Both the position numbers and the translations under genes were made by a program. A stretch of DNA of 64,000 bases. It comes from Phyllobates terribilis. Lineage: Eukaryota. The stretch is from positions 993,364,001 to 993,428,000 of the forward strand of contig NW_027362761.1 in the NCBI RefSeq assembly GCF_046119375.1. Reading direction: 5' to 3'. Under the pieces are notes generated by a model that was given only the letters and a program-made list of their open reading frames with translations, did not search any database and was not told the DNA's origin. This document shows, in pieces, positions 1,263 through 43,390 of the stretch (the stretch's first letter is position 1; each line of letters begins with the position of its first letter).

Positions 1263-4200
1263 TTAGATTCTCCAGCGAGCGGGCATCTGGCCTCTAGTGC
1301 TCCTGGTGGACCTACGTAACACACTATCTGGTGGTGTTCTTTCTGGGCCCCCTGTCTCCACCCCTTGTGTAGTGGGCTCGCTAGTGTCTGCACTACAGGT
1401 GTTTGGAGCTGCTATGGGTAGGTTGGGCAGCTTTCTGTGTACTCTTTGGCTTACCACGGGCACGGCAGGCTCACTACTAGCAGAGGGTTGATTCTCCTGG
1501 GCTGCTGGTATGGAATCTTCTGCCTCCGGGGCCGGTTGCTTTCCCAACTCTACTTGCTCTTCTGTAGGATCTTGAGGGGCTGGCTGGAGAAAGGTAAGGA
1601 CGGGTACCACAATAGCGTTGTTAATTTGTGTCCAGGACCGGGGAAATTCTCCGAGTACTGGACTGACCATTTCTTCCCTTTCCTCTGCGGGTTGAGGGCT
1701 ATCTTGGTCTTCATCAGTGCTCTGCAGCTGCTCGGGACACTTCTTCAGGTGGTCTCTGGAGACAGTGGCTGTGGTCTCTCCTCCATCCTTACTGATAATG
1801 CATACTTTCGGATTTTCATGTCTGGAGGGCAGTACTGTGTACGGTTCTTTCTCCCACTGGTCCTGCTCTCCAGGTGCCAGGGGAACAGCGGGAGCATGCT
1901 GGTTGTAAGTCCTCTCTTGCCTTTCTCTTGCTTGAGACAGACTTCTCTCAACACTCTCCTGAACTTTCCGGTACTGCTGCTGCCGTTCTGTATCCCAGTC
2001 TGCCTCTGGCGAGGTGTCCTCGGGGGTCAGGACTCCCATATCCAGGTCAATAGGCAGCTTACCTGGTCTGGCTCTCATTAGGTAAGCCGGGGTGCAGTTG
2101 GTGGAATTTACTGGGATGTGGTTATACAAATCCACCAGATCAGGCAGTTTTTCAGGCAACAGACTGCGTTCTTCCAGGGGAAACGTTTTCAGAAAGTCTA
2201 TCACCACCTGGTTCATCTTCTCGCATAATCCGTTGGTTTGGGGGTGATAGGGCGTTGTCCTTATCTTCTTGCAGCCATACAGGTTGCAGAACTCCTGGAA
2301 GACCTCCGCTTCGAAGGCTGGACCTTGGTCAGTCAACACTTGCTCCGGATACCCGTGTGGACGGCAGAAGTGCTGCTGGAAGGCTCTAGCTGCGGTCTGA
2401 GCTGTTAAGTCCTTGACAGGGACCACCACCAGGAAACGGGAGTAATGGTCTATGATGGTGAGGGCGTAGACGTACCCGGACCTACTTGGAGCCAGCTTCA
2501 CATGGTCCAGGGCCACCAGTTCCAGTGGCTGCTTGGTGATGATGGACTGCAGGGGAGTCTTCTGGCTGGCACGGTCCTTCCTTCTCAGGTTGCACGGGCC
2601 GCAGTCTCTGTACCATCTCTCAATGGCCCCTCTCATGCCTACCCAGAAGAACCGTTCACGCAACAGGAACTCCAACTTCTTCCATCCAAAGTGCCCTGCT
2701 CCGTCGTGGTATGCCTCCAGGACCATAGCCGCGTCTCGTCTCGGGACCACTACCTGCCAGGTCAGCTCATGTGCCCGGGAGTTGACAATTCTCCGGCACA
2801 GCTTCCCCTTGTAGAGAAACAGTTTACTCTTCTCCTTCCAGAGCTGTTTTGTTTCTTCCGGAGCGTCTGGGTCAAGGCGGGCATCAGCCTGTGTCAACAT
2901 CTCTTTTACCAGGTGGACAGCTGGGTCACTGTCTTGCGTCTCCGCCCAGCTGTGGTGGGGTAAGGGATTGAATGTGGCAGAGAGCCTGTCGCTTACACGG
3001 TGGGAATACTGGGTAATCCCATGACGGTGGAACGCAGGGAGTTCAATCTCTTCCAGTTCTTCTGGATCTTCCCTCTGTCTGGCAAGTTTGGCATCCTGGA
3101 CAGGGCATCTGCTTTGGCATTTGTGCGTCCCGCCCGGTATTTGATGGTGAACTCATAGTTGGATAGGCGGGCCATCCATCTCTGCTCCAAGGCACCAAGC
3201 TATGCAGTGTCCAGGTGTGTCAACGGGTTGTTGTCCGTGTACACGGTGAATTTGGAAGAGGCAAGGTAATGTTTAAAGCGCTCTGTCACTGCCCATACCA
3301 CTGCGAGGAACTCTAGCTTGAAGGAGCTGTAATTTTCAGGATTCCTTTCTGTGGGCCGGAACTTCTTGCTGGCATAAGCGATTACCCGTTCTCTGCCCTG
3401 TTGGATCTGGGACAGCACCGCCCCTAGCCCGATGTTGCTCGCGTCTGTGTGGAGAATAAAAGGCTGGCCGTAATCATGGTACGCCAGGATTTCATCCCTC
3501 GTGAGGGCCATCTTCAGCTGGCGGAAAGACTCATCCTCCAGCTTGTCCCATTTGAAGGGCGGCTTCTGGTTTTTAGCCTTTGACTGACCCAACAGGAGGT
3601 TTTGCATAGGGGCTGCCATTTTGGTGAACCCAGGGATGAATCTTCGGTAGTAGCCTACCAACCCGAGGAACTGCCGCACTTCCTTTATGCTGGAGGGTCT
3701 TGGCCAGTCCTTAATCACTGTGATCTTTGCAGGGTCTGGAGCTACTCCGTCAGCACTCACCATGTGTCCCAGGTACTGTACCTTTGGTTTCAGTAGATGA
3801 CACTTGGAGAGTTTCACCTTTAGGCCGTAGCCTGCCAGGGTGTCAAACACCTCTGCCAGGTGTTTCAGATGGTCCTCATATGTTTTGGAATACACGATGA
3901 CATCGTCCAGGTATAGCAGGACAGTCTCGAAATTCCTGTGCCCCAGACAGCACTCCATCAACCGCTGGACGGTTCCTGGTGCGTTGCAGAGCCCGAACGG
4001 CATACAGTTGAATTCGCTGAGACCCATCGGGGTGGTGAACGCGGTCTTCTCCTTGTCCGCCTCTGCTACAGGAACCTGCCAGTACCCGCTAGTAAGATCC
4101 AAAGTGGAGAAGAAGTTAGCAGACTTTAATGCAGCTAAAGATTCCTCTATCCAAGGTAACGGGTACGCATTTTTGCGTGTGATACGGTTGATCTTTCTGT

Positions 4201-5314
4201 AATCTACACACATTCTCATGGTGCCATCTTTCTTTTTCACAAGAACTAGTGGAGCTGCCCAGGGGCTACAGCTGTCCCTGATTACCCCAGCATCCTTCAT
4301 TTCTCGCAACATTCCCTTGGCATTCTGACAGTGTGCAGGGGGTACAGGTCGGTATCTTTCCTTTATGGGCGGATGGTCTCCTGTGGGGATGTGGTGTTCT
4401 ACCCCCTTTACTTGCCCAAAGTCTAGCGGGTGTTTGCTAAAAACTCTTTCGTACTCTTGAACCACCCGGTAGACTCCCTGTTTGTGGTGCGAGGGAGTGG
4501 AGTCGGTGCCCTCATGCAGTTTCTGACACCAGTCCTCCATTTGTTTCTTGGAGCCGTTACCCTCCTCTGATTGAGATGGAGGCAAGGGTTCCACGGCCTT
4601 TACAGAGTTTTGGTTAACGGTGAACAATTTGGCTAGAGTGGCATACCGGGGCAAGTATACTTCTCTTTCCGCAATGTTTAGGATGCGGACGGGTACCCTC
4701 CCATGGCGTACATCGACCACCCGCCGTGCTGTCAAAATGGTGGGCCTACTGTCTGAGTAGACGGGTTCTACCATGGCTTGGTAGTCCCTTTCTCTTGACC
4801 CAATTGCAGTCCGGCACCAGATCATCATCTCACTTTTTGGGGGCATGGCAATAAGGAACGGGTCACTCATCCTAACACTACCAATCTCACCGCCAGACAG
4901 TTCTACCTGTTGCCTTTTCATCAGGGCTCTGATCTCTTTTTGTAGGACACGCTGCTGGCTGGAGCTGGCGTTCACCGCAACCTGCTGTAATATGACAATT
5001 ATCTCTGCAAGACAATTTTCAATAACATTAGTACCCAAGGTTATCTTAGGGTGGCTTTCACGATGGTCAGTGTCCACAATAATCAGTCCTTGCGCTGTCA
5101 GTTCAACTTTACCAATTTTTATGGTCACCTCCTTGAATCCCACCTGCGGCACGGGCTGACCATTGCTTGCGATGATGCTCAAATCATCATCTGGGTAGCG
5201 GGTAATATCTGAGTCATTCCAGTACTGCTTAAAAAGCACATAGGGGATGGTGGTTACCTGTGACCCGGTGTCCAGTAGTGCACTCATAGGTATGCCATTG
5301 AGCACCACAGGCAA
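1263..5314 (-). pseudogene. Gypsy pol (protease-RT-RNase H-integrase), broken by stops and frameshifts
   Basis: ORFs 3200..5314, 2993..3190 and 1263..2900 align colinearly with the 1697-aa ORF at 18282..23375. Confidence 0.92.
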
Positions 5315-5399
5315 GACCGGTCGTCCCCCTACGTACTTATCACGCCAGCTGGATCTTTCCTGGAGGGGACACCTGTAAAGACTGCACAGTTCTGGTTAG

Positions 5400-6090
5400 C
5401 GCGGCAACGCTTTTGGTCAGCTCTTGGACCTGATGGTGCAGGTCTGCAGCCGGGGCTTCATCCAAAGCTGATAGGTGATAGCAGGGCGCCTGTGGATTAT
5501 AGCGCCACCTGGTGCCGGTTCTCGGAGCACCCGGATGGCCCTGTCTTTAAACTGCGCAAAGTCCAAATCAGGGTTCTGCAAGGCCATTACACGCAACTGG
5601 GTTTGGTGGGACTGGACTGTAGACCCTCAATGAACTGTTCAGTCAACAGCTTATCCTCATTCTGCACGCTGTCAGGGTCTGCCTGCTTAATGGCTCTCAG
5701 GGCCTCCTGCAAATTCTAAGCATAGTCCCGTATACTGTCTTGTGCCCGCTGTTTGCATCCATAAAATTTTAGCTTGATCTCTGCTGAGGTGCGGGTATCA
5801 AAAGTGTCCTTTAGACGGGCCAGTATTTCCTTTATAGTCCCCTTTTCATTGGCTGACCAGGACTTCACTTCTCTTTGGGCTGCTCCGATTAACTGGCCTA
5901 TCAGGATGCTCACTTTTTGTTCCTCGGACAGGGGGTATACTTTGAATAGGCTATTCAGTCTTTCTTTAAAGTCGCTCAGGGTATGCGACTCCCCTGAGTA
6001 CTGGGGTAACCATGCTGCTCCTGGGATATACGGCATCGTGAACGGCATCACTGCAGTAGCAGCCGCGCTGGCGGTGGGAGCTCCCTCCAT
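5400..6090 (-). pseudogene. Gypsy gag (capsid-like), frameshifted, zinc knuckle deleted
   Basis: ORF 5716..6090 (MPFTMPYIPGAAWLPQYSGE...) matches the N-terminus of the intact copy. About 212 bp containing the CCHC motif is missing near 5345. Confidence 0.88.
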
Positions 6091-6434
6091 TCCTGGTGTC
6101 TTCCTCCCCCCTAGTTAACCATGGCCTACCTTCCGATGCTTCCTCTCCATAGGCCGCGGCTCCGCAGGCGATCGTCGGGGTCGAGGACCTTGCGTCACGC
6201 GCTGGTGACGTCGTCGTCTGCTGGGCTCCTTCCAGGACCTTGCGCAGCGTCAGTACGTAAGGCGGGGCTTCCGCTCTTGCACGCTTTTGGCATCCACGCC
6301 CCTCTTCTTCCTGCGTGGCATCCCAAAAATGGCGCCCAATGGCGGGAAAACGGCTGCGGATGGCGGGAAACTTCACCACGGTAAGTATCACAGTCTTTCT
6401 TCAGGCGCGCAGTACCCGGTGGTTGCGGGCACGA

Positions 6435-6453
6435 AATCCTGCCGACTACGCCA
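6435..6453 (-). promoter_or_regulatory. Primer-binding site, tRNA-Ser
   Basis: The + strand reads AATCCTGCCGACTACGCCA, the 3' end of vertebrate tRNA-Ser plus CCA, 4 nt from the LTR edge. Confidence 0.88.
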
Positions 6454-6457
6454 AAGT

Positions 6458-7465
6458 TAACGCGCCCCCTGGGCCGTGTGTGGGGGAATACCCGGAGCCG
6501 GGTCTCTGTGTAATGCTGGGGATTGTAGTCTCTGTGGCAGCGACCCGGTCCCGTGGCTCAGGGTGGTCAAACCAGTGGCGGATCTGTTTATTTGGTTTTT
6601 AATGTTTAAATGTCCGACTACGCCACCTGTGGATTGCGGTCACTGAAAACCGCCGCTGCGGGACAGACCGCTGAGGCTGATGTTGTGTGCGCAGCAGAGG
6701 GTAGTATAACTCCCCACGGGAGGAGTATAGCCTCAGGGCAGCGTGTGTAGATGGTGAGGGTTGTGATGCACGGGCGCAGCAGAAATGACTCAGAGTCCTT
6801 GCAGTACAGTTCAGGGTCTTTACTGTTGGTAATGAAGAAGGCCCTGCCGGGAGTACTGGCTAACATTAGAGGCCTGTTCAGTCTGTGAGCGAACAAGAGT
6901 CCCCCTGGCCAGGTGGAGGTGTAGGCCTTCCTGTCTGACTGCACTCTTCCTGGTTACCTTGCTGTAGTCGTGTAGTAGCCCACGTCCCTGAGTGTACCGT
7001 GTGGTGCTCACCCATATGGCGGTGACTTGGGGCCTTTGGTTCCTTCCGCTCCTGGCGGTCCCAGTCCCTTGCGTGTGACTGAGCCTCCGGGCTTTCTATG
7101 GCCAGAGGACCTGAAATCTCCTGCCAGGTGGTTTCTGCTGCTGGATGTTAATATCCTCACAGCCTCGGACTCCGGTGTCCGGTTCTCTGCGTCTTCTGCC
7201 AGGACAAGCTCTGCTAGCTTCCAGTCCCTGGCCTTCAGCTCCTGGCTCCTACAGAGCTCCTTGCTGCTGCTCTGTCCCTTTCTCTGGAACTAGACTTCTC
7301 TGCTAACCCCGCCCCAGATCCAGTTTATAAAGGGCAGGTTCCTCCCCTCCCTGGACTGGGGCAGGAGGTGTGGCATGCAATATTGCTCCTGACCAGGAAA
7401 ACCCATGCTCGCTCTCAGACATGATATTTCTACTACTGTGGCAACCAGACCCCTGGGGTGCCACA
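6458..7465 (-). repeat. 5' LTR of the degraded Gypsy (about 1.0 kb)
   Basis: Termini TGTGGCACCCC...GGGGCGCGTTA (TG..CA with one mutation). AATAAA on the minus strand near 6587-6592. Homologous to the LTRs at 16914 and 23818. Confidence 0.85.
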
Positions 7466-8581: not shown

Positions 8582-8717
8582 GATATCACACATATGTCCA
8601 ATGAAAAATAAAGTTCGGTGATTTAAAAAGACTTGAAATAGGACAAACTACATAATCCGCTGCTTCAGCTGTGATAAGTAGTGCCCTAAAAGCTATTTCT
8701 CTCTGCCTATTATTAAA

Positions 8718-11035
8718 CCTTCATTTTTCAAAGTGACATTAGTCCAGATACAATATTTCTTATATTTTCATGTATGGAGTGCCGAAGTTCTTTTTGCAAT
8801 TGAGATTACTTTTTTCTTCAGAGCACCCGAATAGACCAGTGAGCGACCCCTCTCTTTTTTCTATTAATCATTTTTGGGATCCCGCTCCTGGAGCATTGCA
8901 GCAGGTACGTGTTCACACTATTAGAAGTTTGACAGCCTTTCTTCTGACCATGTGTCCCTCCCATTCAGTCACAGGTGGTTTTAACTAGCTCTACCAGCCC
9001 ATACATTGTAGGTTAAAAGCCCAAGCAGAGACATATTGTCCATACAGGCTTACAGCCCAAGAGTGGCATATCCAGTGGTAGTGTAGCGTAGTTTCCCATC
9101 ATACGAAGGTGACCTTGTCATGGTTGATGGGCACACATAAATTGGCCAAATTATGCGCAAAAAAACTTCATTTTTCAAAGTGACATTAGTCCAGATACAA
9201 TATTTCTTATATTTTCATGTATGGAGTGCCGAAGTTCTTTTTGCAATTGAGATTACTTTTTTCTTCAGAGCACCCGAATAGACCAGTGAGCGACCCCTCT
9301 CTTTTTTCTATTAATCATTTTTGGGATCCCGCTCCTGGAGCATTGCAGCAGGTACGTGTTCACACTATTAGAAGTTTGACAGCCTTTCTTCTGACCATGT
9401 GTCCCTCCCATTCAGTCACAGGTGGTTTTAACTAGCTCTACCAGCCCATACATTGTAGGTTAAAAGCCCAAGCAGAGACATATTGTCCATACAGGCTTAC
9501 AGCCCAAGAGTGGCATATCCAGTGGTAGTGTAGCGTAGTTTCCCATCATACGAAGGTGACCTTGTCGTGGTTGATGGGCACACATAAATTGGCCAAATTA
9601 TGCGCAAAAAACCTTCATTTTTCAAAGTGACATTAGTCCAGATACAATATTTCTTATATTTTCATGTATGGAGTGCCGAAGTTCTTTTTGCAATTGAGAT
9701 TACTTTTTTCTTCAGAGCACCCGAATAGACCAGTGAGCGACCCCTCTCTTTTTTCTATTAATCATTTTTGGGATCCCGCTCCTGGAGCATTGCAGCAGGT
9801 ACGTGTTCACACTATTAGAAGTTTGACAGCCTTTCTTCTGACCATGTGGCCCTCCCATTCAGTCACAGGTGGTTTTAACTAGCTCTACCAGCCCATACAT
9901 TGTAGGTTAAAAGCCCAAGCAGAGACATATTGTCCATACAGGCTTACAGCCCAAGAGTGGCATATCCAGTGGTAGTGTAGCGTAGTTTCCCATCATACGA
10001 AGGTGACCTTGTCGTGGTTGATGGGCACACATAAATTGGCCAAATTATGCGCAAAAAACCTTCATTTTTCAAAGTGACATTAGTCCAGATACAATATTTC
10101 TTATATTTTCATGTATGGAGTGCCGAAGTTCTTTTTGCAATTGAGATTACTTTTTTCTTCAGAGCACCCGAATAGACCAGTGAGCGACCCCTCTCTTTTT
10201 TCTATTAATCATTTTTGGGATCCCGCTCCTGGAGCATTGCAGCAGGTACGTGTTCACACTATTAGAAGTTTGACAGCCTTTCTTCTGACCATGTGTCCCT
10301 CCCATTCAGTCACAGGTGGTTTTAACTAGCTCTACCAGCCCATACATTGTAGGTTAAAAGCCCAAGCAGAGACATATAGTCCATACAGGCTTACAGCCCA
10401 AGAGTGGCATATCCAGTGGTAGTGTAGCGTAGTTTCCCATCATACGAAGGTGACCTTGTCGTGGTTGATGGGCACACATAAATTGGCCAAATTATGCGCA
10501 AAAAACCTTCATTTTTCAAAGTGACATTAGTCCAGATACAATATTTCTTATATTTTCATGTATGGAGTGCCGAAGTTCTTTTTGCAATTGAGATTACTTT
10601 TTTCTTCAGAGCACCCGAATAGACCAGTGAGCGACCCCTTTCTTTTTTCTATTAATCATTTTTGGGATCCCGCTCCTGGAGCATTGCAGCAGGTACGTGT
10701 TCACACTATTAGAAGTTTGACAGCCTTTCTTCTGACCATGTGTCCCTCCCATTCAGTCACAGGTGGTTTTAACTAGCTCTACCAGCCCATACATTGTAGG
10801 TTAAAAGCCCAAGCAGAGACATATTGTCCATACAGGCTTACAGCCCAAGAGTGGCATATCCAGTGGTAGTGTAGCGTAGTTTCCCATCATACGAAGGTGA
10901 CCTTGTCGTGGTTGATGGGCACACATAAATTGGCCAAATTATGCGCAAAAAACCTTCATTTTTCAAAGTGACATTAGTCCAGATACAATATTTCTTATAT
11001 TTTCATGTATGGAGTGCCGAAGTTCTTTTTGCAAT
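8718..11035. repeat. Tandem array, 447-bp unit x about 5.2, flanked by the 10-bp direct repeat TATTATTAAA
   Basis: Identical small ORFs recur at 8770, 9217, 9664, 10111 and 10558 (period 447). TATTATTAAA at 8708-8717 and 11036-11045. About one private substitution per copy. Confidence 0.95.
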
Positions 11036-11318
11036 TATTATTAAATTACAACTCGAAGCATGGAGAATGTCAGTGCATGCTTGGGATTGTAGTTTCATAA
11101 CAACTGGAGAGTGATAGGTTGCAGACCTGTCATATGAAAGAAGCATAAATAAGTCCAGATAGAAGCTCATCATCACATCAGATCTTATCTGGGGGACATT
11201 TTTGGGGGTATTTTTAATTAAATTAGCTGCTTGATTACTTTAGGCAATAAACATTATTGTTACATGAAGTTAAAATTAATGGCGTTGTACAAAATATATA
11301 CAGTATAATATTGTATAA

Positions 11319-12575: not shown

Positions 12576-13885
12576 ATTATAGAATCATGGAATTTTAGAT
12601 TTGGAAAGGACCTGATTCATCGTGTCTAACCACCCTGCTCAATGCAGGATTCGCTAAACCATCTCAGACAGATGTCTGTCCAGCCTCTGTTAGAAGACTT
12701 CGATTGAAGGAAAACTCACCACCTCTCGTGGCAGTCTATTCCACTCATTGATCACCCTCACTGTCAAAAAGTTTTTTTAAATATTTAATCTGTATCTTCT
12801 CCCTTTCAGTTTCATTGCATTGCTTCTCTTTTTCCAAGTGCAAATGAGAATAAGTTTGATCCCTCTACACTGTGTCATCCCTTCAGATATTTATAGACAG
12901 CTATTAAGTCTCCTCTTAGCCGTCTTTTTTGTAAGCTAAACATTGCCAGATCCTTTTACCGTTCCTCATAGGACATAGTTTGCAGTCCACTCACCATGCT
13001 CTTCTCTGAACTTGCTCCAGTTTTTCGATAACTTTTTTTAAAATGTGGTGCCCCGAACTGTACACAGTATTCCAGATGAGGTCTGACTAAGGAGGAGTAG
13101 AGGGGGATAATTACTTCACATGCTTCTGTTACATCCCAATACTGTGTTTGCCTTTTTTGCTGCTGCATCACACTGTTGACTCATGTGCAGTCTGAGATCT
13201 ATTAGTATATCCAAGTCTTTTTCACACTTGCTGTTGCTTAGTTCTATTCCTCCCATTCTGTAAATGTAATTTTCGTTTTTCTTGCCAAGATGTAGATTCT
13301 TGCATTTCTCCCTGTTAAATACCATTCTATTAGTCGTTGCCCGTTGTTCAAGCTTATCTAGATTCACCTGAGTCCTTTCTGTTTCTCCTCTAGTGTTAGA
13401 TATTTCTTCTAGCTTTGCATTGTCTGCAAACTTAATTAGTTAACCTTCAGTTCCCTTATCTAGATCATTTATAAAAAATGTTGAACAACACTGGGGCCAA
13501 GACAGAGCCTTGTGTTACCCCACTTGAAACACTCCTCCAATTGGATGTGCAACCATTTATTACCACTCTTTGAGTATGATCACTGAGCCAGTTACAAATC
13601 CACCTAACCGTAGCCTTGTCAATCCCATACTTGGTAATTTTTTCAATAAGGATAGTATGAGATACTTTATCAAATACTTTGCTGAAATCGAGAGATACTA
13701 TATCTACTGCATTTCCCTCATCCACCCAGTCAGTGTTTCTATCAAGAAGGAAATTAGATTAGTCTGGCATGACTTGTTTGCTACAAACCCATGCTGGTTC
13801 TGGTTAATTTAATTACTGTATTCTCATCCAAGTACTTACATACATGCTATTTAATAATTTGTTCAAAGATCTTTCCTGGTATAGA
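12576..13885 (-). mobile_element. CR1 LINE, 3' part of ORF2 (RT) plus 3' tail
   Basis: Fragments [27 protein letters not shown] and FNREKCK..HLG. The minus-strand 3' end ATTCCATGATTCTATAATC resembles the CR1 (ATTCTRTG)n tail. Confidence 0.88.
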
Positions 13886-13890
13886 AATAA

Positions 13891-14310
13891 TGTTAGAACC
13901 TTGCTCTTAGGTTTTTTCCTTTGCTGGTCACATGACCTTGTTGGCCTATTTAATCCTGCTCCGCCCTTCTGGCTTTGCTGGACTTCATTGTATAACTACT
14001 TTCTAGCTAGCCTGTGCTCTGTATCTAACTCTGTTAGTTTGCTTGGTCTACGGACCTCTATGTTCTATATATTTTGTTTGTTCGTCTGTCTGCTACTATT
14101 TCTGTTAGGAGGTGTCCCATATTCCTCCCAGTCCTTAGTACTTGTAGGGATTCCTTCCCCACATCTATAGGTCTCCGTACAGACTAGCTTAGGACTTTAG
14201 CAGGTCTGATCGCAGGATCAGGTTCCCTGTTACATCGTAGGGATTCAGCTGAGTTCTATCGTAGGGACAGATCTCCTCTCTTTCCTTAGCTCTGGTAGCA
14301 GAACATAACA
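13891..14310 (+). repeat. 5' LTR of the sushi-like element
   Basis: TG..CA ends, TATA-like TATTTAA at 13947-13953. Two mismatches seen versus the 3' LTR. Confidence 0.95.
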
Positions 14311-14312
14311 GT

Positions 14313-14321
14313 AAGTCCAGC
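14313..14321 (+). promoter_or_regulatory. Putative self-priming PBS (Tf1/sushi type)
   Basis: No TGG tRNA-type PBS follows the LTR. AAGTCCAGC is the exact reverse complement of GCTGGACTT (13977-13985), which begins 30 nt after the TATA-like box. Confidence 0.65.
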
Positions 14322-14358
14322 CTGCAAATTCTCTAAGGAAAGATTTTTCTGTTCCATC

Positions 14359-15131
14359 ATGGTGTCGGTTCAGGATTTGGCTAAACACCTGCAGGGACTC
14401 TCTCTGGAAGTGGCCGAGCTCCGTCAGCACGTGAGTAACTGTCCTGGAGCACATTTCTTGGAGCCTAAGATATGTTTGCCGGATTTATTTTTTGGTGAAC
14501 ACCGAGAATTTTTTTCATTTAAAAATGCTTGCTTATTGTATTTTCGTTTGAGACCCAAGTCCTCTGGGGATGAATCCCAGCGCATAGGGTTCATAATGTC
14601 ACTTTTGCGCAAAGAGCCTCAGGAGTGGGCCTTTTCTTTGCAACCTAGTGATACATGCTTCAGATCAGTGGATAGTTTTTTTTCTGCTTTGGGACTATTA
14701 TATGATGATCCTGACCGTGTCGCATCAGCTGAGACTGAGTTGAGACGTTTGAAACAGGGATCAGGTAATGTGGAAAAATATTGTACTCATTTCCGTCGTT
14801 GGTCTACTCAAACAGGGTGGAACGATTCTGCTCTGAAAAGTCTATTTCTTGCTGGGCTCAATGAAAGGGTTAAAGACCTGCTAATTGCTTATCCTACACC
14901 TGAAGATTTGCAACAGGCTATGCAATTAGCTATACGGGTGGATAGGAGACTGCGTGCAAGGGTTAATGAGAGCAAATCCTCTGCTATGTCAGTTTCTGGT
15001 TATGAGAATGTGTGTACTAACAGTGGTGAACCGATGGAGATTGGATCGGTGGCACCTCGCTCTCAAGAAAAAGACCGTAGATTTTCTGAAGGCTTGTGTT
15101 TCTATTGCGGAAAATCTGGTCATTTAATTAA
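14359..15131 (+). CDS. Gag (Ty3/sushi capsid plus CCHC knuckle), 5' segment of a split gag-pol ORF
   Basis: EPKICLPDLFFG..., EPMEIG, CFYCGKSGHLI. The knuckle is completed (KGC) on the far side of the piggyBac. Confidence 0.9.
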
Positions 15132-15599
15132 CCACTTCGCGCCAGAGCCTGTTTTTGCCTTCATGACCGGGCCAATTTTTTCAATTCTGACCACTGTCAC
15201 TTTATGAGGTAATTACTCTGGAACGCTTCAACGGATCCCCCTGATTCTGAGATTGTTTTTTTGTGACATATTGTACTTCATGATAGTGGTAAAATTTCTT
15301 TGATATCACTTGCGTTTGATTGTGAAAAAATCGGAAATTTGGCGAAAATTTTGAAAATTTTGCAATTTTCAAACTTTGAATTTTCATGCCCTTTAATCAG
15401 AGAGATATATCACACAAAATAGTTAATAAATAACATTGCCCACATGTCTACTTCACATCAGCACAATTTTGGAACCAAAATTTTTTTTTGTTAGGAAGCT
15501 ATAAGGGTTAAAAGTTGACCAGCGATTTCTCATTTTTACAACAAAATTTACAAAAACATTTTTTTTAGGGACCACATCTTATTTGAAGTGACTTTGAGG

Positions 15600-16440
15600 A
15601 GCCTTTATGACAGAAAATACCCAAAAGTGATACCATTCTAAAAACTGCACCCCTCAAGGTGCTCAAAACCACATTCAAGAAGTTTATTAACCCTTCAGGT
15701 GCTTCACAGGAATTTTTGGAATGTGGAAGAAAACAATGAACATTTAACTTTTTTTCACAAAACTGCTACTTTAACCTCAAATTTTTAATTTTCACAAGGG
15801 CAGCCAGAAAAAATGGACCCCAAAATGTGTTGTGTAATTCCTCCTGAGCACGCTGATACCCCATATGTGGTGCAAAGCCACTGTTTGGGTGCACGGCATG
15901 GCTTGGAAGGTAAGGAGCGCCATTTGACTTTTGGAATGGAAATTTGACTGGAATGGATAGCGGACGCCATGTTGCATTTGGAGAGCCCCAGAGGTGTCTA
16001 AACAGAGGAAACCCCCAACAAGTGACCCCATTTTGGAAACTAGACCCCTCAAGGAACTTATCTAGATGTGTGGTGAGCACCTTGAACCCCCAGGGGCTTC
16101 ACAGAATTTTATAATGTTGAAGTGTGAAAATAAAAAAACACATTTTTAACACAAAACTGCTACTTTAGCCTCAAATTTTTAATTTTCACAAGGGCAGCCA
16201 GAAAAAATGGACCCCAAAATGTGTTGTGCAATTTCTCCTGAGCACGCTGATACCCCATATGTGGTGCAAAGCCACTGTTTGGGCGCACGGCATGGCTTAG
16301 AAGGTAAGGAGCGCCATTTGACTTTTGGAATGGAAATTTGACTGGAATGGATAACGGACGCCATGTTGCATTTGGAGAGCCCCTGAGGTGCCTAAACAGA
16401 GGAAACCCACAACAAGTGACCGAATTTTACAATCTACTCC
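15600..16440. repeat. About 394-bp tandem repeat in the piggyBac 3' region
   Basis: CACAAAACTGCTACTTT at 15756 and 16150. Near-identical ORFs at 15785 and 16179. Recurrent AAGTGACCCCATTTTGGAAA. Confidence 0.8.
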
Positions 16441-16483
16441 TCTGTATAAATTAATCTAGTGGTGGGAAAATAAGTAGATGGGT

Positions 16484-16669
16484 AAATGGTCACTAAACCC
16501 ATAGATGAATTCCCACAGAGGTGTCATTTCTATAATGGGGTCACTTCAGGGGGGATTATGCTGTTCTGGCACTTTTCAGAGTACCAGAGCTAAAGAATTC
16601 CCCCTGAAGTGACCCCATTTTGGAAATGATACCCCTCTGGGAATTCATCTATGGGTTTAGTGACCATTT
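16484..16669. repeat. Inverted repeat (about 70-bp arms, about 46-bp spacer) within piggyBac
   Basis: AAATGGTCACTAAACCCATAGATGAATTCCC...GTCACTTCAGGGG versus CCCCTGAAGTGACCCC...GAATTCATCTATGGGTTTAGTGACCATTT. Confidence 0.85.
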
Positions 16670-16821
16670 TAACTCAATGGATGATTTCCAGAAACAAGCA
16701 CGCAATGGAAGGTTTAGATTCTGGAGAACCCCCCCTGGAAATTAAGTGAGCTCTACTCGAATGTGTCATTCACTAAATGAACCAAATGTTTGAATGACAA
16801 ATTGGGATACATTTTTACAGT

Positions 16822-16913
16822 TTAAAAACGTGGTTCTGTGTGGAAGATTTTAAAGCAGTCAGTGACGCATAAGGCTGGCAATGATGGGCATTGTGGGCAA
16901 TAGTAGCGGGTAT
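16822..16913 (-). pseudogene. Displaced C-terminal cysteine-rich domain of the piggyBac transposase
   Basis: Across the GTAT TSD the frame reads ...RRDT-RYYCPQCPSLPALCVTDCFKIFHTEPRF*. Confidence 0.88.
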
Positions 16914-17916
16914 TGACGCGCCCCTGGGCCTGCTGTGTCGCGCAACGTCTCACGCACGGGGGCTTACCCGGAACCGGATCAGATGAGGGTTGTAGTCTCC
17001 GAGTGGCGGGGACCCGGTCCGTGCCCAGGGAGTCAAACTCAGTGTGTGGCAGTCTTGATAGGTGTTATTTGAGTGTCGACTACGCCACCCGTTGATTTGC
17101 AGCTCTGGAGCTGCCGCTGCAGGGCAGACCGCTGAGGCCGGTGTAGAATTGTGCAGTGTGATAGTATAACCCCCAACGGGAGGGGTATGGCCTCAGGGCA
17201 GCCGACGTGGAAGATGGGGGTAGCAGGAACCACTCAGAGACGGTGCGGTGTAATTCAGGGTCTTTACTGGTAACAACGATAGACCCTCCCGGAGTACTTG
17301 CTAGCGAACGGGGCCTGGTCAGTCCTTGAGCAGATGGGATCTCCCCTGGCCAGGCGGAGTTGTAGGCCTCCCAAACTGACTGTACTCTTCTGGCTACCTT
17401 GCTAGAAGCGGATATAAGTAGCCCACGTCCCTGAGTGTGCCGTGTGGTGCTCACCCGTATGGCCGGTGACTCGGGGCCTTCTAATGGCTTCCGCTCCACG
17501 ATGGCGGTGCTGGTCCCACGCGTGTGACCTTGCCTTCGGGTTTCTGGGCCTGAGGACCTGAAATCCCCTGCCGGTCGGCTTCTGCTGCTGGGTAAGAGTT
17601 AGTCCCCACAGCCTCGGACGCCGGGTCCGGTAAGAAAGCTTCTCAGTCAGGGCGAGCTCTGCAGCTGCCAGCCCCTGACTCGTAGTAGTATTGCTCCCAC
17701 TGAGCTTCTGCTGTTTCTTCCTATGACTGTTTCTCGTCTCTACTCTCCTTGACTCCTAACCCTGCCTCAGCCCCGGGTTTATATAGGGGAAGTTCTTCCC
17801 CTCCCCAGACTGGACAGGAGGTGTGGCATGCACAGGATCCCTGACCAAAGGACCTCCCACCTGCTCTCAGACATAACATTACATTACTGTGGAAACCAGA
17901 CCCCTGGGGTGCCACA
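16914..17916 (-). repeat. 3' LTR
   Basis: Direct repeat of 23818-24820 with about 5 mismatches seen. TGTGGCACCCC...GGGGCGCGTCA on the minus strand. Confidence 0.96.
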
Positions 17917-17927
17917 TTCCCCCCTAG
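17917..17927 (-). promoter_or_regulatory. Polypurine tract
   Basis: Minus strand CTAGGGGGGAA abuts the 3' LTR. Confidence 0.8.
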
Positions 17928-18281
17928 TGAAATTTAGTACTCCGGGACTAAACATATTTTAGAAAAACATAACAAGATATAACAACAATAACAGTACAAT
18001 AAGAAGAAACACATAAAGGTGGTCACGGCATGTCCGTAACCGGGTGCAGTCTTTGAAGAAAAAGCAAGGTGTCCATTTCACCAAAACAGGGAGACGTAAC
18101 CAGGTAGGGGTTTGTCCTGCCCCGAGTCCTTAACAGTCTTTAGTCCATCCTGGGTTACGCTCCAACTATGTACAAGGGATTCCCGGTAAATCCACCAAGG
18201 ACTCCTACAAATAACTAGAAACACAAAATTATACACAAGCAACAATACACAGGTAAACATAAATAAAACAATTTATACACT

Positions 18282-21200
18282 TCAAATCCTCCAACGTGCG
18301 GGTAACTGGCCTCTAGTGGCCCTAGTGGACCTACGGAGCTGACTGTCTAGCCCTGAACTACAGGGTGTAGGAGCTGTCAAGGGTAAACTGGGCAGCTGTC
18401 TACCGGCTCTTTGGCTCACTAGGGATATGGCAGGCTCACTGCAAGCAGAGGGTTGATCCTCCTGGTCTGCGGGTGTGGGGTCTTCTGCCTCCTGGACCGG
18501 CTGTTCTTCCAGCTCTACCTGTTGCTCCGTAGGTGCTTGGGATGCTGGTTGGAGGAAGGTGAGTACGGGTACCACAACTGCACCATTGACTTGAGTCCAA
18601 GACCGAGGGAAGTCCCCGAGCACAGTACTAACCATATCTTCCCTTTCCTCTACGGGCCGATGGTCTTCTTGTTCCTCTTCAGGGTTCCTCAGTTGTTCGG
18701 GACACTTCTTCAGGTGGTCCCGGGATACAATGGCTGTGGTTTCCCTTCCGTCTTTACTGATGGTACAAACCTTTGGGTTCTCGTGGCTTGAGGGCAGTAC
18801 GGTGTACGGGTCCTTCTCCCACTGGTCGTCCAACTTGTGGAGCCGTCTCTTCCTCTTCAAGACCTGCTCTCCGGGTACCAGGGGAACAGCGGGAGCATAC
18901 TGGTTGTAAGTTTTCTCTTGTCTTTCCCTAGCCTGACAGAGACTTCGCTCCACGCTCTCCTGTACTCTCCGGTACTGCTGCTGCCTCTCTGTGTCCCAGT
19001 CTGCTTCTGGTGAAGTGTCCTCGGGTGTCAGGACTCCCATTTCCAGGTCAACAGGTAACTTACCAGGTCTTGCCCTCATTAGGTAAGCCGGGGTACAGTT
19101 GGTGGAACCTACCGGGATGTGGTTGTATAGGTCCACCAGATCGGGCAACTTCTCAGGCCACAGACTGCGTTCTTCCAGGGGCAACGTTTTTAGAAGATCC
19201 ATTACCACCTGGTTCATTTTCTCACAAAGTCCATTAGTTTGCGGATGGTAGGGTGTCGTCCTTATCTTCCGGCAGCCATACAGATTGCAGAATTCCTGGA
19301 AGACCTCCGCTTCAAAGGCAGGTCCCTGGTCTGTCAACACTTGGTCCGGGTACCCGTGTGGACGGCAGAAATGCTGCTGGAAGGCTCTAGCTGCTGTTCG
19401 AGCTGTTAAGTCCTTGACGGGAACGACAACCAAGAACCGGGAGTAGTGATCCACGATGGTTAGTGCGTAGACGTAGCCACTTCTGCTTGGGGTCAGTTTT
19501 ACATGATCCAAGGCTACCAGTTCCAACGGCTGCCGGGTGACGATGGACTGCAGGGGAGTCTTCTGGCTGGCACGGTCCTTCCTTCTTAGGTTGCACGGGC
19601 CACAGTCTCTGCACCACCTCTCGATGGTTCCCCTCATGCCTACCCAGTGGAACCGCTCGCGCAGCAGGAACTCCAGCTTCTTCCATCCGAAGTGTATAGC
19701 CCCGTCGTGGTATGCCTCCATCACCATGGCTGCGTCTCTTCGTGGCACCACTACTTGCCAGATTAGTTCATGCGTCCGGGAGTTAACCATTCTGCGGCAC
19801 AACTTCCCCTTGTAAAGGAACAGTCGACTCTTCTCTGCCCATAGTTGTTTGGCTTCCTCCGGAGCGTCTGGTTCAAGGCAAGCCTCCGGGCGAGTCAGCA
19901 TCTCCTTCACCAGTCGGACGGCAGGGTCGCTGTCTTGCGTTTCCGCCCAGTTGTAGTGAGGTAAGGGGTTCAACGTAGCAGCCTGCTTACTCCTTACCCG
20001 GTGCGAATACTGGATAGTCCCATGACGGTGGAACGCAGGGAGTTCAACTTCTTCCAGTCCCTCCAGGTCTTCTCCTTCGTCCGGCAGGTTGGGCATCCTG
20101 GACAGGGCGTCCGCGTTGGTATTGGAGCGTCCGGCCCGGTATTTGATTGTGAACTTGTAGTTGGACAGACGGGCCATCCACCTCTGTTCCAGGGCACCGA
20201 GTCTTGCCGTGTCCAGGTGTGTCAACGGGTTGTTATCCGTGTACACGGTGAACCGGGAAGAAGCGAGGTAATGCTTAAAGCGCTCGGTGACTGCCCATAC
20301 TACGGCCAGGAACTCTAGCTTAAATGAGCTGTAATTCTCGGGGTTCCTTTCGGTGGGTCGCAGCTTTCGGCTGGCGTAGGCGATTACTCGTTCCTTCCCC
20401 TGCTGGATCTGGGACAGTACGGCTCCTAGCCCGATGTTACTGGCGTCGGTGTAGAGGATAAAGGGCTGGCTATAATCCGGGTACGCCAGGATTTCGTCCC
20501 CCGTGAGGGCCATCTTCAGCTGGCGGAAGGACTCTTCTTCCAGCTCCTCCCATTTGAAGGGCGGCTTCTGGTTCTTGGCCTTCCGGGACTGGCCTATCAG
20601 GAGGTCCTGCATAGGTGCTGCCTTTTTGGTGAAACCGGGAATAAACCTTCGGTAGTAGCCTACCAACCCGAGGAACTGCCGCACTTCTTTTACGCTGGAG
20701 GGGCTTGGCCATTCCTTAATTGCGGTGATCTTATCAGGGTCGGGAGCCACTCCGTCAGCGCTCACCACGTGTCCCAGGTACTGCACCTTTGGTTTCAGGA
20801 GGTGACACTTGGAGGGTTTCACCTTTAGGCCGTAACTCGCCAGAGCTTCGAACACTTCCGCCAGGTGTTTCAGGTGGTCCTCATACGTCTTGGAATATAC
20901 GATGACATCGTCCAGGTACAACAGGACCGTCTCGAAGTTTCTGTGGCCCAGACAACACTCCATTAGTCGTTGGAAGGTTCCTGGTGCGTTGCAGAGTCCG
21001 AACGGCATGCAGGTGAACTCGCTAAGTCCCATCGGGGTGGTGAATGCGGTCTTCTCCCGGTCCGCCTCTGCTACAGGAACCTGCCAGTACCCGCTAGTGA
21101 GATCCAAGGTAGAGAAGAAGTTAGCAGATCTTAAAGCAGCCAATGACTCCTCTATCCTTGGTAAGGGGTACGCATCCTTGTGTGTGATACGGTTGATTTT

Positions 21201-23375: not shown

Positions 23376-23793
23376 CCTTCTCCCCCCTAGTGGACCGTGG
23401 CCTACCTTGCGATGATCCTCTTCCGTAGGCCGCGGCTCCGCAGTGGATCGTCAGGGTTGAGGACCTTCCGTCGCGCTCCGGTGACGTCGGCGTCTGCTGG
23501 GCTCCTTCCAGGACCTTACGCAACGTCCGGACGTGAGGCGGGGCTTCAGTTCTCGCGGGCTTTTCGGAGTCCACGCCCCTCTTCTTCCCGCGCGGCGTCC
23601 TCAAGATGGCGTCCAACGGCGGGAAAACTCCACGGATGGCGGGAAGAAGGCTGAAGATGGCGCCGGATGGCGGGAATCTTCACAGATGGCGGGAAGAAGG
23701 CTGAAAATGGCGCCGGATGGCGGGAATCTTCTCCACAGGTGAGTTTGAAAGTCTCTTTTTCAGGCACGCAGTACCCGGTGGTTGCGGGCACGA

Positions 23794-23812
23794 AATCCTG
23801 CCGACTACGCCA
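23794..23812 (-). promoter_or_regulatory. Primer-binding site, tRNA-Ser
   Basis: + strand AATCCTGCCGACTACGCCA, 5 nt from the LTR edge. Confidence 0.9.
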
Positions 23813-23817
23813 AAAGG

Positions 23818-24820
23818 TGACGCGCCCCTGGGCCTGCTGTGTCGCGCAACGTCTCGCGCACGGGGGCTTACCCGGAACCGGATCAGATGAGGGTTGTAGT
23901 CTCCGAGTGGCGGGGACCCGGTCCGTGCCCAGGGAGTCAAACTCAGTGTGTGGCAGTCTTGATAGGTGTTATTTGAGTGTCGACTACGCCACCCGTTGAT
24001 TTGCAGCTCTGGAGCTGCCGCTGCAGGGCAGACCGCTGAGGCCGGTGTAGAATTGTGCAGCGTGATAGTATAACCCCCAACGGGAGGGGTATGGCCTCAG
24101 GGCAGCCGACGTGGAAGATGGGGGTAGCAGGAACCACTCAGAGACGGTGCGGTGTAATTCAGGGTCTTTACTGGTAACAACGATAGACCCTCCCGGAGTA
24201 CTTGCTAGCGAACGGGGCCTGGTCAGTCCTTGAGCAGATGGGATCTCCCCTGGCCAGGCGGAGTTGTAGGCCTCCCAAACTGACTGTACTCTTCTGGCTA
24301 CCTTGCTAGAAGCGGATATAAGTAGCCCACGTCCCTGAGTGTGCCGTGTGGTGCTCACCCGTATGGCCGGTGACTCGGGGCCTTCTAATGGCTTCCGCTC
24401 CACGATGGCGGTGCTGGTCCCACGCGTGTGACCTTGCCTTCGGGTTTCTGGGCCTGAGGACCTGAAATCCCCTGCCGGTCGGCTTCTGCTGCTGGGTAAG
24501 CGTTAGTCCCCACAGCCTCGGACGCCGGGTCCGGTAAGAAAGCTTCTCAGTCAGGGCGAGCTCTGCAGCTGCCAGCCCCTGACTCGTAGTAGTATTGCTC
24601 CCACTGAGCTTCTGCTGTTTCTTCCTATGACTGTTTCTTGTCTCTACTCTCCTTGACTCCTAACCCTGCCTCAGCCCCGGGTTTATATAGGGGAAGTTCT
24701 TCCCCTCCCCAGACTGGGCAGGAGGTGTGGCATGCACAGGATCCCTGACCAAAGGACCTCCCACCTGCTCTCAGACATAACATTACATTACTGTGGAAAC
24801 CAGACCCCTGGGGTGCCACA
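23818..24820 (-). repeat. 5' LTR
   Basis: Direct repeat of 16914-17916. TATA-like motif in CCCCTATATAAACCC on the minus strand near 24680. Confidence 0.96.
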
Positions 24821-26549: not shown

Positions 26550-26566
26550 TTTATTTTTATATTTTT

Positions 26567-27033
26567 TGACTGGACTGAACGGACCGGACTGAAAGGACGG
26601 GACCGGACTGGACTGACCGGACTGATCTGACAGGACTGACTGACTGATGTGACAGGACTGACTGACTGATCTGACAGGACTGACTTACTGACAGATCTGA
26701 CAGGACTGACTGACAGATCTGACTGACTGACAGATCTGACAGGACTGACTGACTGACAGATCTGACAGGACTGACAGATCTGACAGATCTGACTGACTGA
26801 CAGATCTGACAGGACTGACAGACTGACAGATCTGACAGGACTGACTGACTGACAGATCTGACAGGACTGACTGACTGACAGATCTGACAGGACTGACTGA
26901 CTGACAGATCTGACAGGACTGACTGACTGACAGATCTGACAGGACTGACTGACAGATCTGACAGGACTGACTGACAGATCTGACAGGACTGACTGACTGA
27001 CAGATCTGACAGGACTGACAGATCTGACTGACT
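26567..27033. repeat. Compound GACT/GACA/GATCT microsatellite upstream of the piggyBac ATG
   Basis: Repeats of GACTGACTGACAGATCTGACAG. Confidence 0.92.
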
Positions 27034-27636
27034 CACTAACCCTAACTCTTACTTTCTTTTTTATTTATTTTTTTTTTTACTTTCACAGTGGCAAGGCTGA
27101 CAGCTCTTGTCACACTGTTTCTCCTCTGCTCTCTCACTGAGATCGGAGGAGAAACTGCATTTATCAGGCAGATCGCCCGGGAAAGTTTGTTGCTAAAACA
27201 AACTTCCCTGGTGATCTCTCTGATTGGCTGGTGTGACGCTGACATCATCGAGACCTGAGCCAATCAGGTCTCAATGATGTCAGAGGTCACAGCACCGGGA
27301 TCCCCGCCGCTGACAGGTATGTGGGGGGTCCCGATCTCCGACCACCGGGGGTCCCGATCGCCGACCACCGGCTGTCCCTATCTTTTAAATGCCGCGATCG
27401 CTATGGATCGCGGCATCTAGAAGATAGGAACAGGTTAACATCATGGGGACCTGATCCAATCAGGTCCCCATGATGCCACATGTCAGAGCTATCGCTCTGA
27501 ACCGGTACCGCAGCGCTAGCAGGACCCTGGGGGTCCTGAGCGCTGCGGGACCACTCACCGTTTTTAAACGTTGGCGCTGCACAGAGCCCAGGCAGCGCCG
27601 ACGTTTATGTACAGTGGGCGGTCCTGAACCGGTTAA

Positions 27637-30931: not shown

Positions 30932-30943
30932 AAGGGGGGGTAC

Positions 30944-42051: not shown

Positions 42052-42848
42052 TTTGACACGGTCACTGGCGATATATGTGAGGGGAGATATGTGTCTCGGA
42101 TGTTGCTATCTTCTGTGATGTGAAACCCAAAAGCTTGTCTCCAGCATGTTAGGTGCTGAAGAGGTTAATCAGCCATCTTGGGTTTGGTTTTTTGTGAGCA
42201 GGTGTGAGATGGGAGGAATGGGAGGTAGTTTTAATTGCAGTAGGATCTTACTTTCCCACATACAAGCAGACGGATGTCCCTTAGAGAGGTATTCACATTG
42301 GTAGGGTCCAGACATTGAGAAACGCCTTACCGCAGCTGTCAGGTACACATGAATTGGCCAATTTATGCGCTAAGATTTCTCATTTATTTCTGTTTTCTAC
42401 AGCAGTAATGCTATTCATATTTCATACTTCATATTTACATACTTAGCGTTGCAGAGTGCTACTTCGTTTGTTAATTGAGATGGGAGGAATGACTACTCAC
42501 CATATCTCCACCTCAAGGGTGTGGCTGGAATAGTTAAATGTTCAGCTACTGTTTTCTTTGTGGTGTTGTTTGGAGAAGGAAGTCTCCAGACTGTGTGGGT
42601 GGAAGCCAGAGAGCTAGCCAGAAGGACTTTGGTGAACTTTGTTGTGTTATCCAGAGCGGGTGAAACCCCGCTCACTTATGAACTGTGCTATTTTTTTGTT
42701 TTGATTCTCGTTATGCCGGAAAGGCCGTGTTTACTTTTGTGGAACCCCGCAGTGGTTTATGCCGTGTCCTAATAAACCAGCAGGAGGTTAACCCAAGAAG
42801 TGTACCCGTATCTATCTCTGTGAGAGCCGAGTGAGTCAATCTGCCACA
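42052..42848. repeat. Solo LTR containing a 255-bp insertion
   Basis: (T)TGACACGGTCACTGG ... CTGCCACA ends, AATAAA at 42770. Homologous blocks with the next LTR. Confidence 0.65.
42221..42475. mobile_element. 255-bp TSD-flanked insertion related to the 447-bp array unit
   Basis: 16-bp TSD TGAGATGGGAGGAATG (42205-20 and 42476-91). Shares the colinear blocks AGGT.GTTTTAA, CAAGCAGA, ACACAT.AATTGGCCAA.TTATGCGC and GAGTGC...AAT with the array. Confidence 0.75.
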
Positions 42849-42856
42849 GTATATAT

Positions 42857-43387: not shown

Positions 43388-43390
<3 letters not shown>
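42857..43390. repeat. Solo LTR in a TA microsatellite
   Basis: TGTGACAAAG...GTACCACA, ATAT on both flanks, TTTAAAT TATA-like motif and AATAAA at 43304. Confidence 0.7.

What the first reader, a model, noticed from the sequence alone, without database searches (positions are those of the whole stretch)
8708..11045. 447-bp x 5.2 tandem array inserted as one TSD-flanked unit: candidate circular-RNA (retrozyme-like) mobile element
Seen: five full copies plus about 83 bp of a sixth, bounded by the 10-bp direct repeat TATTATTAAA. The roughly five differences found are each private to one copy (about 0.2%), with no hierarchy of shared variants. The unit has no credible ORF but several hairpins (e.g. 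CCCATCA...TGATGGG at 9542-9578). Known: non-LTR retrozymes in metazoans, including amphibians, occur as tandem 170-400-nt monomers that give circular RNAs. Inference: this is a single insertion made by an RT running several times around a small circular or multimeric RNA, rather than a satellite grown in place. I cannot assign it to a named family.
Basis: partly seen in the sequence, partly recalled or inferred. Interest (0 to 1): 0.82.

Follow-up and report, generated by a model that had tools for sequence, protein, structure and literature searches.

The report
Ribozyme-less tandem retroposon in a frog
A young jumping-DNA insertion of five-and-a-bit identical 447-base repeats in a frog genome looks like the tandem parasites of Penelope-type retrotransposons, but it lacks the self-cutting RNA that those elements use to make circles, so the circular-RNA idea is unsupported.

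Summary
The array is real: 5 x 447 + 83 bp (8718-11035) between perfect TATTATTAAA repeats, with five private substitutions. It splits one arm of an old palindromic repeat, and that arm fits its partner only with one TSD copy, so it is an insertion.

New here: a 67%-identical, 255-bp relative at 42221-42475 has its own 16-bp TSD, the same right end and a different left end. That fits a non-autonomous retroposon family with a fixed end, variable TSD length and no tail, i.e. Penelope-like (PLE) target-primed insertion.

It is not a retrozyme by definition: no hammerhead on either strand, no Rfam match, and no unusual folding. The private variants barely discriminate (P = 0.27 under stepwise growth), so circle, linear multimer and local expansion all remain open. 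One hairpin keeps two compensatory changes in the relative.

PLE ancestry could not be tested, because no eukaryotic genome or repeat library was available. Verdict: a new variant of a known kind; circular RNA about 15%.

The parts
8708..8717 (.). Left target-site duplication (6-10 bp; the last 3 nt also match the unit)
8718..11035 (+). Inserted array. Full copies 8718-9164, 9165-9611, 9612-10058, 10059-10505 and 10506-10952; 83-bp partial copy 10953-11035. The + orientation is inferred (about 70%).
11036..11045 (.). Right target-site duplication (the first base also matches the unit's continuation)
9542..9578 (.). Hairpin A (present in every copy). Its 7-bp outer stem has a positional counterpart in the relative with 2 compensatory pair changes. 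It lies about 117 nt before the shared right end.
9583..9602 (.). 20-bp near-palindrome, the best-conserved block shared with the relative
9257..9357 (+). Splice-like signals: a pyrimidine tract plus AG ending at 9268 (21 nt past the shared end) and a donor-like CAG|GT at 9351/9352. Seen by eye, not scored.
8669..11140 (.). Old palindromic (MITE-like) host repeat interrupted by the array: left arm 8669-8717 plus 11046-11064, right arm about 11074-11140
42221..42475 (+). Diverged relative: 255 bp, 67% identical over 224 aligned columns, same right end as the array, different left end. Hairpin counterpart 42308-42343, palindrome 42348-42367.
42205..42220 (.). Left TSD of the relative (16 bp, perfect)
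42476..42491 (.). Right TSD of the relative; its first 6 nt equal the array unit's continuation past the shared end

Best explanation
The array is a young copy of a non-coding, non-autonomous retroposon family in a hyloid frog. It most likely borrows the RT/GIY-YIG protein of a Penelope-like element (PLE). Shown: insertion into a pre-existing site with a TSD; a second family member with a TSD of different length; one shared end and one variable end; no ORF, poly(A), microsatellite tail, TIR, TG..CA LTR or ribozyme. Inferred: (1) a donor head-to-tail array is transcribed by Pol II into a linear multimer; (2) the partner protein binds a cis-signal, possibly the conserved hairpin plus palindrome, nicks the target (AT-rich here) and starts cDNA synthesis internally at a fixed site (the shared ...AAT end); (3) it copies a variable length, 5.19 units here and 0.57 unit at 42 kb; (4) repair fills the staggered nicks and gives a 6-16 bp TSD. 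No circle or self-cleavage is needed.
For: TSD chance 3 of 19,818. The empty-site alignment scores 48.5 with one TSD against 25.0 with none and 38.0 with two. The relative has nhmmer E = 2.9e-8 with no hit in the reversed-window control, and the best of 447 possible 3' anchor positions is exactly the array-type end. The relative's empty site fits the neighbouring LTR-like copy best with one TSD (67.5 against 56.0 and 59.0). A 6-nt match between the relative's TSD start and the unit's continuation (background frequency 3.3e-4 per site) fits priming inside a longer RNA. Unequal TSD lengths and no TIR (14 of 40 terminal bases match) argue against cut-and-paste. Literature: PLE insertions are 5'-truncated partial tandems, and non-autonomous Chlamys such as MRC1 often form multicopy head-to-tail insertions in a clade that mostly lacks hammerheads (PMC8557442). 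PLE TSDs of 8-10 bp, one of them AT-rich (PMC3846280). Internal RT start at fixed sites and ATT/AT-rich cleavage (PMC11167929). 24 of 57 Xenopus retrozyme families match Repbase TEs, 21 of the 22 matched being PLEs, in their pLTR regions (bioRxiv 2026.07.22.740005).
Against: No homology to any autonomous PLE could be shown or tested. No PLE-type domain (GIY-YIG) was hit among the window frames scanned, and the nearby RT fragment at 13468-13758 reads as CR1-type (judged from recalled motifs). Vertebrate PLE clades (Poseidon, Neptune) normally carry a hammerhead in the pLTR, and this unit has none. The fixed end rests on two copies: neighbouring anchors within about 14 nt score nearly as well, so chance is a few percent. 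Orientation is not settled: the palindrome hairpin keeps two G-U pairs only on the minus strand in both copies, and the array's left end sits at a U-tract of the minus strand. In vitro, PAc starts without primer homology, unlike the 6-nt match in the relative, and the relative's target is G-rich rather than AT-rich.
Confidence: 0.5

Rival explanations
1. A short copy (1.19 units, 530 bp, with 83-bp terminal direct repeats) inserted by the same route and then grew in place by unequal exchange between the 83-bp repeats.
For: It gives exactly n x 447 + 83 inside one TSD. All-private variants have P = 0.27 under steady growth and up to 0.90 if growth was early. Local amplification by unequal crossover is the model discussed for PLE-derived tandems in bioRxiv 2026.07.22.740005, and TE-derived satellites are reported in frogs (PMC10794172).
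Against: It needs several duplications in a short time. The six 83-bp segments differ at only 1 of 498 positions, there are no indels, and both TSDs are intact.
Confidence: 0.2
2. One reading: an RT ran about five times around a 447-nt circular RNA.
For: Seamless near-identical units, non-integer copy number and a single TSD. Each full copy carries exactly one private change (P = 0.03 under random allocation; noticed after the fact). More-than-unit copying of circles has been proposed for PLEs (PMC4209133), and amphibian retrozyme circles are documented (PMC7229834). A hairpin with covariation sits roughly where a PLE hammerhead would.
Against: No means of making the circle was found. The + strand contains no GAAA at all. 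The type I hammerhead descriptor gave 0 hits on either strand at up to 1 mismatch; 2 hits appeared at 2 mismatches, a level reached by 149 of 200 shuffles. HDV-like and twister descriptors gave 0 hits. Rfam gave nothing better than E = 6.3. The circular fold is ordinary. Back-splicing between the visible splice-like sites would give 83- or 530-nt circles, not 447 (inference).
Confidence: 0.15
3. The family is mobilised by a non-LTR LINE (CR1/L2/RTE/Tx1 type) as a tandem SINE-like element, or the RNA is the minus strand with a fixed 5' end and variable internal priming.
For: Variable TSD length and junction microhomology also fit LINE-type insertion (established knowledge). A CR1-type RT fragment lies in the window. 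There are minus-strand hints.
Against: There is no poly(A) or simple-repeat tail at either end and no tRNA-, 5S- or 7SL-like head. Multiple T runs on both strands exclude a multimeric Pol III transcript (inference).
Confidence: 0.1
4. A DNA-only route (rolling-circle HUH transposon, circular DNA patched into a break, or a DNA transposon's internal repeat), or a copy number inflated by assembly.
For: Rolling-circle DNA elements make head-to-tail tandems, and the conserved palindrome could be a DNA signal (recalled). No reads were available to check the assembly.
Against: Two independent insertions have perfect TSDs of different lengths, whereas Helitron-type elements make none and cut-and-paste elements make a fixed length (recalled). 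There are no TIRs. Every full copy is distinguishable by a substitution and no homopolymer indels occur.
Confidence: 0.05

Closest known systems
Non-autonomous Penelope-like elements with multicopy head-to-tail insertions (e.g. MRC1 / non-autonomous Chlamys; PMC8557442)
   Same: Non-coding, tandem with a partial terminal copy, one fixed and one truncated end; the clade mostly lacks hammerheads
   Different: Those are green-algal and show 3'-end similarity to a known autonomous partner. Here the host is a frog and no partner has been identified.
Non-LTR retrozymes of amphibians (PMC7229834; bioRxiv 10.64898/2026.07.22.740005)
   Same: Low-GC (42%) non-coding unit within the reported family size range (51-972 bp; amphibian mean 316), few tandem units (75% of families have at most 7), TSD longer than 4 bp
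   Different: No type I hammerhead in the unit, which is the defining feature; circular RNA not shown
Poseidon/Neptune/Penelope pLTR partial tandems (PMC11167929, PMC3846280)
   Same: Fixed internal end, AT-rich target at the array, 8-10 bp TSD class, a palindrome in the repeat, no poly(A)
   Different: No ORF, no hammerhead, no inverted 5' copy, no optional 30-40 bp tail seen in the two copies; the relative's target is G-rich with a 6-nt match
Tandem TRIM/Cassandra arrays (search listing only, PMC7215508; features otherwise recalled)
   Same: The n x unit + short terminal repeat pattern
   Different: The ends are not TG..CA, the TSD is not 4-6 bp, and the relative's left end shows the 83 bp is not a fixed LTR

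Membership tests
Non-LTR retrozyme | Type I hammerhead ribozyme in each repeat unit | tested here: not met
   Rfam 0 hits at gathering score and none better than E = 6.3. Own descriptor, including minimal and U3-A8 cores: 0 hits at up to 1 mismatch on both strands. The + strand has no GAAA. The descriptor had no known-ribozyme positive control.
Non-LTR retrozyme | Short low-GC non-coding unit in tandem, TSD longer than 4 bp | tested here: met
   447 bp, GC 0.42, TSD 6-10 bp; no protein homologue
Non-LTR retrozyme | Self-cleavage and accumulation of monomeric circular RNA | not testable with these tools
   needs RNA data or bench work
Non-autonomous Penelope-like element | Partial-tandem structure with one fixed end and one variably truncated end | tested here: met
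   Two copies share the right end and differ at the left; n = 2 only
Non-autonomous Penelope-like element | Sequence similarity of the fixed end to the pLTR of an autonomous RT + GIY-YIG element | not testable with these tools
   No eukaryotic genome, Dfam or Repbase on hand. Four motifs searched in the PMC8557442 supplement (no Xenopus entries) gave 3 short matches in unrelated context.
Non-autonomous Penelope-like element | Hammerhead in the pLTR (usual in Poseidon/Neptune, absent in Naiad and most Chlamys) | tested here: not met
   a different conserved hairpin occupies that region
Non-autonomous Penelope-like element | Variable TSD of about 8-10 bp, AT-rich target, no poly(A) tail | tested here: inconclusive
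   Array: met. Relative: 10-16 bp TSD in a G-rich site.
SINE / L1-type retrocopy | Small-RNA-derived head and poly(A) or simple-repeat tail | tested here: not met
   ARAGORN 0 genes, Rfam none, no tail at either end
TRIM / LTR element | TG..CA LTRs and 4-6 bp TSD | tested here: not met
   Ends are CCTTC.. and ..GCAAT; TSDs are 6-10 and 10-16 bp
Cut-and-paste DNA transposon / MITE | Terminal inverted repeats and fixed TSD length | tested here: not met
   14 of 40 terminal bases complementary; unequal TSDs
HDV-like or twister ribozyme element | Fold descriptor match | tested here: not met
   0 hits on either strand; shuffles hit in 11 and 12 of 200. Home-made descriptors with no positive control.

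The most novel reading that the evidence does not exclude
A vertebrate retrozyme-like family in which the hammerhead is replaced by an undescribed RNA motif (the covarying hairpin plus adjacent palindrome). This motif would cut or help circularise the multimer, so the array would be the fossil of an RT running round a 447-nt circle made without any known ribozyme.
Probability: 0.08. Interest if true: 0.8.

Novelty: new variant of a known kind. Interest (0 to 1): 0.38.

Why it matters
If the best reading holds, hammerhead-free tandem parasites of Penelope-like elements exist in vertebrates. Hammerhead-based retrozyme surveys would miss them by construction, because they keep only tandem repeats with at least two complete hammerheads. 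Such a family offers a natural control for an open question: does a PLE's head-to-tail structure come from circles made by the ribozyme, or from linear multimers? The young, clean locus and the two-member conserved hairpin give a small, testable cis-signal. Otherwise it is one more unclassified frog repeat and may already be in Dfam or Repbase, which were not checked.

Tried and rejected
Ribozymes: Rfam on the whole window, the array start and the relative gave no credible hit. The relaxed hammerhead scan gave 0 hits on + and 7 + 7 on -, none compact (3-5 bp stems, long loops or mismatched cores). The stricter type I scan gave none at up to 1 mismatch. On the whole window the descriptor found 7 rows at 3 sites, none convincing, so there was no natural positive control.

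Coding origin: 12 stop-free frames against Pfam gave 2 sub-cutoff hits. The 81-aa frame gave none in the 5.8-billion set at near or longer lengths. It gave 9 hits among the representatives, but these are summed weak matches to repeat proteins, best single stretch 12.6 bits, and were rejected, including a tempting FN3-like stretch. Only this one frame was searched against the large sets.

tRNA-like head: an eye-catching A-box-like stretch was rejected.

Relatives elsewhere: none in prokaryotic genomes, plasmids or phages, as expected. Five motifs in paper full texts: 0 papers. Rana temporaria repeat paper supplements: 0 hits, but 4 of 6 files had no text. A two-member profile found no third copy in the window (best E = 1.2).

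Autonomous partner in the window: 10 long frames plus 171 shorter frames outside the large Gypsy blocks and arrays gave only Tc1, piggyBac, LTR-type and one LINE-type RT hit.

The 'no shared variants' argument was tested and found weak.

Left unchecked: viral and metagenome contig collections, any eukaryotic genome, Dfam/Repbase, reads, and the supplements of PMC7229834 and of the 2026 preprint, which hold amphibian retrozyme sequences that could match.

Full report
1. Observation. The array is as described. Tandem Repeats Finder gives period 447, 5.2 copies and 99% matches. TATTATTAAA occurs only at 8708-8717 and 11036-11045 in the window, and the 2318 bp between are five full units plus 83 bp. 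A direct repeat of 10 bp or more within 4 nt of two random positions arose in 3 of 19,818 trials. The last 3 nt of the left repeat and the first base of the right repeat also match the unit, so the duplicated target is 6-10 bp. There are five substitutions and no indels, one per full copy: 0.22%, 95% CI 0.07-0.50%. All six frames contain stops and the longest open stretch is 81 aa.

2. Setting. The window is a transposon-dense stretch with Tc1, piggyBac, Gypsy-type and LINE fragments. The piggyBac frame's two best hits are from hyloid frogs (84% and 80% identity), so the host is very likely a hyloid anuran.

3. It is an insertion. With the array and one TSD removed, the site reads as the left arm of an old palindromic repeat. 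That arm aligns to the right arm at 27 of 45 positions without gaps. The alignment score is 48.5 with one TSD, 25.0 with none and 38.0 with two, the latter two needing a 10-nt gap. This is an internal empty-site test, not an observed empty allele.

4. A 32-bp match at 42342-42373 (E = 1.9e-5) extends to a 255-bp relative at 42221-42475: nhmmer E = 2.9e-8 with no hit in the reversed window, 151 of 224 aligned columns identical, and best of 738 window segments tested. It has a perfect 16-bp TSD (42205-42220 and 42476-42491) inside an LTR-like repeat whose neighbouring copy fits best with one TSD (67.5 against 56.0 and 59.0). When the 3' anchor was slid over all 447 positions, the best score fell exactly on the array's own right end, although positions within about 14 nt scored nearly as well. 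Its left end lies elsewhere in the unit. The first six bases of its TSD equal the unit's continuation beyond the shared end (background 3.3e-4 per site). An intact TSD with 33% divergence suggests a different subfamily rather than a decayed copy (inference). No third copy was found.

5. No known ribozyme. Rfam gave no hit at gathering scores over the window and only chance hits over the array start and the relative. The + strand has no GAAA tetranucleotide. A type I hammerhead descriptor that allowed minimal forms and U3-A8 cores (variants described in PMC4209133) gave 0 hits on either strand at up to one mismatch. At two mismatches it gave 2 hits, a level reached by 149 of 200 shuffles. HDV-like and twister descriptors gave 0. 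These descriptors are home-made and lacked a positive control. The unit folds no better than shuffles, linear or circular.

6. What is conserved. Hairpin A (9542-9578) has a counterpart at 42308-42343 with 6 of 7 outer pairs kept, two by changes on both sides. The chance of that under 33% independent divergence is 0.004, but the stem was picked after inspection and only two sequences exist. It is followed in both by a 20-bp near-palindrome, the best-conserved block. Its outer extension pairs (G-U) only on the minus strand, which counts against my preferred + orientation.

7. The private variants do not prove one-step synthesis. In a simulation of stepwise duplication to five units, all five variants look private with P = 0.27, rising to 0.90 if growth was early.

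8. Mechanism. Shown: insertion, TSDs of unequal length, one shared end, no tail, no TIR, no ORF, no known ribozyme. Inferred: target-primed reverse transcription by a borrowed protein that starts at a fixed internal site and copies a variable length. PLEs fit best. Their insertions are 5'-truncated partial tandems, and non-autonomous Chlamys such as MRC1 often form multicopy head-to-tail insertions in a clade mostly without hammerheads (PMC8557442). Rotifer PLEs have 8-10 bp TSDs and palindromes in their pLTRs (PMC3846280). The anole Poseidon protein cuts at ATT in AT-rich DNA, starts internally and does not need ribozyme cleavage in vitro (PMC11167929). Xenopus retrozymes are related to PLE pLTRs (bioRxiv 10.64898/2026.07.22.740005). 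Against this: no partner could be identified, vertebrate PLE clades normally keep a hammerhead, n = 2, and the relative's target is G-rich with a 6-nt match. My odds: linear multimer by a PLE 0.5; short insertion then local growth 0.2; circular template 0.15; LINE partner or reverse orientation 0.1; DNA route or artefact 0.05. That it is a reverse-transcribed, TSD-flanked mobile element at all is about 0.9.

9. Known versus new. It works like a non-LTR retrozyme or non-autonomous PLE in layout, but it is not a retrozyme, because the defining hammerhead was tested and not found. PLE membership is untested. Eight paper searches turned up no description of this sequence or of a hammerhead-free vertebrate family of this type. 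The library lacks most subscription papers, and Dfam/Repbase were not available, so it may already be catalogued.

10. What I saw of each paper. The 2026 preprint: parts 1-3 of 5 (abstract to discussion), supplements not seen. PMC11167929 and PMC4209133: parts 1-2 of 4. PMC8557442: 12 of 21 passages, section 10 and a five-term search of its supplement. PMC7229834: 12 of 18 passages, supplement unreadable. PMC3846280: 10 passages. PMC5680766: 5 passages. PMC10794172: 12 of 13 passages. PMC12054243: supplement search only, 2 of 6 files with text. PMC7215508: search listing only. Features of Helitrons, TRIMs, SINEs and CR1 motifs are recalled.

11. Verdict. A real, young, cleanly bounded insertion of a small non-autonomous retroposon family; a hammerhead-free variant of a known kind. 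Interest 0.38. The novel case, a new cleaving or circularising motif, has probability 0.08 and would deserve 0.8.

Noticed in passing
window 9257-9357 (+), in every copy: Acceptor-like pyrimidine tract plus AG 21 nt past the shared end, and a donor-like site 83 nt later. PLE 5' regions carry introns, in one case spanning the pLTR boundary. Not scored.
   Followed up: partly
window 8718-10952: Each of the five full copies carries exactly one private substitution (P = 0.03 under random placement); probably chance.
   Followed up: partly
window 8715-8717 and 42221-42240: Both variable (left) ends lie at or within about 10 nt of the unit's only two A-runs of 4 or more, i.e. U-tracts of the minus strand; a possible hint of reverse orientation.
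   Followed up: no
window 42053-42850 and 42857-43389: Two adjacent, diverged solo-LTR-like repeats (TG..CA ends) set in TA-repeat context; the first hosts the relative.
   Followed up: partly
window 16914-24820: Gypsy-type element with 1003-bp LTRs 99.5% identical and a 1722-aa frame; an older, 83%-identical relative at 1388-7465.
   Followed up: no
window 13888-31363: A second, chromodomain-bearing Gypsy-type element with 423-bp LTRs 99.3% identical, containing nested insertions including a piggyBac transposase at 24625-26289.
   Followed up: partly
window 13468-13758 (-): LINE-type RT fragment, CR1-like by recalled motifs.
   Followed up: partly
window 47779-50331 and 61575-63473: Long minisatellites (24-bp x 106; 12/24-bp x about 79) that give long stop-free repetitive frames.
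   Followed up: no
window 55036-58298 (-): Decayed LTR-type element with a SCAN-domain gag-like frame and integrase upstream of RT.
   Followed up: no
window 15696-16459: Two-copy tandem of about 395 bp at 88% identity, an older duplication that TRF did not list.
   Followed up: no
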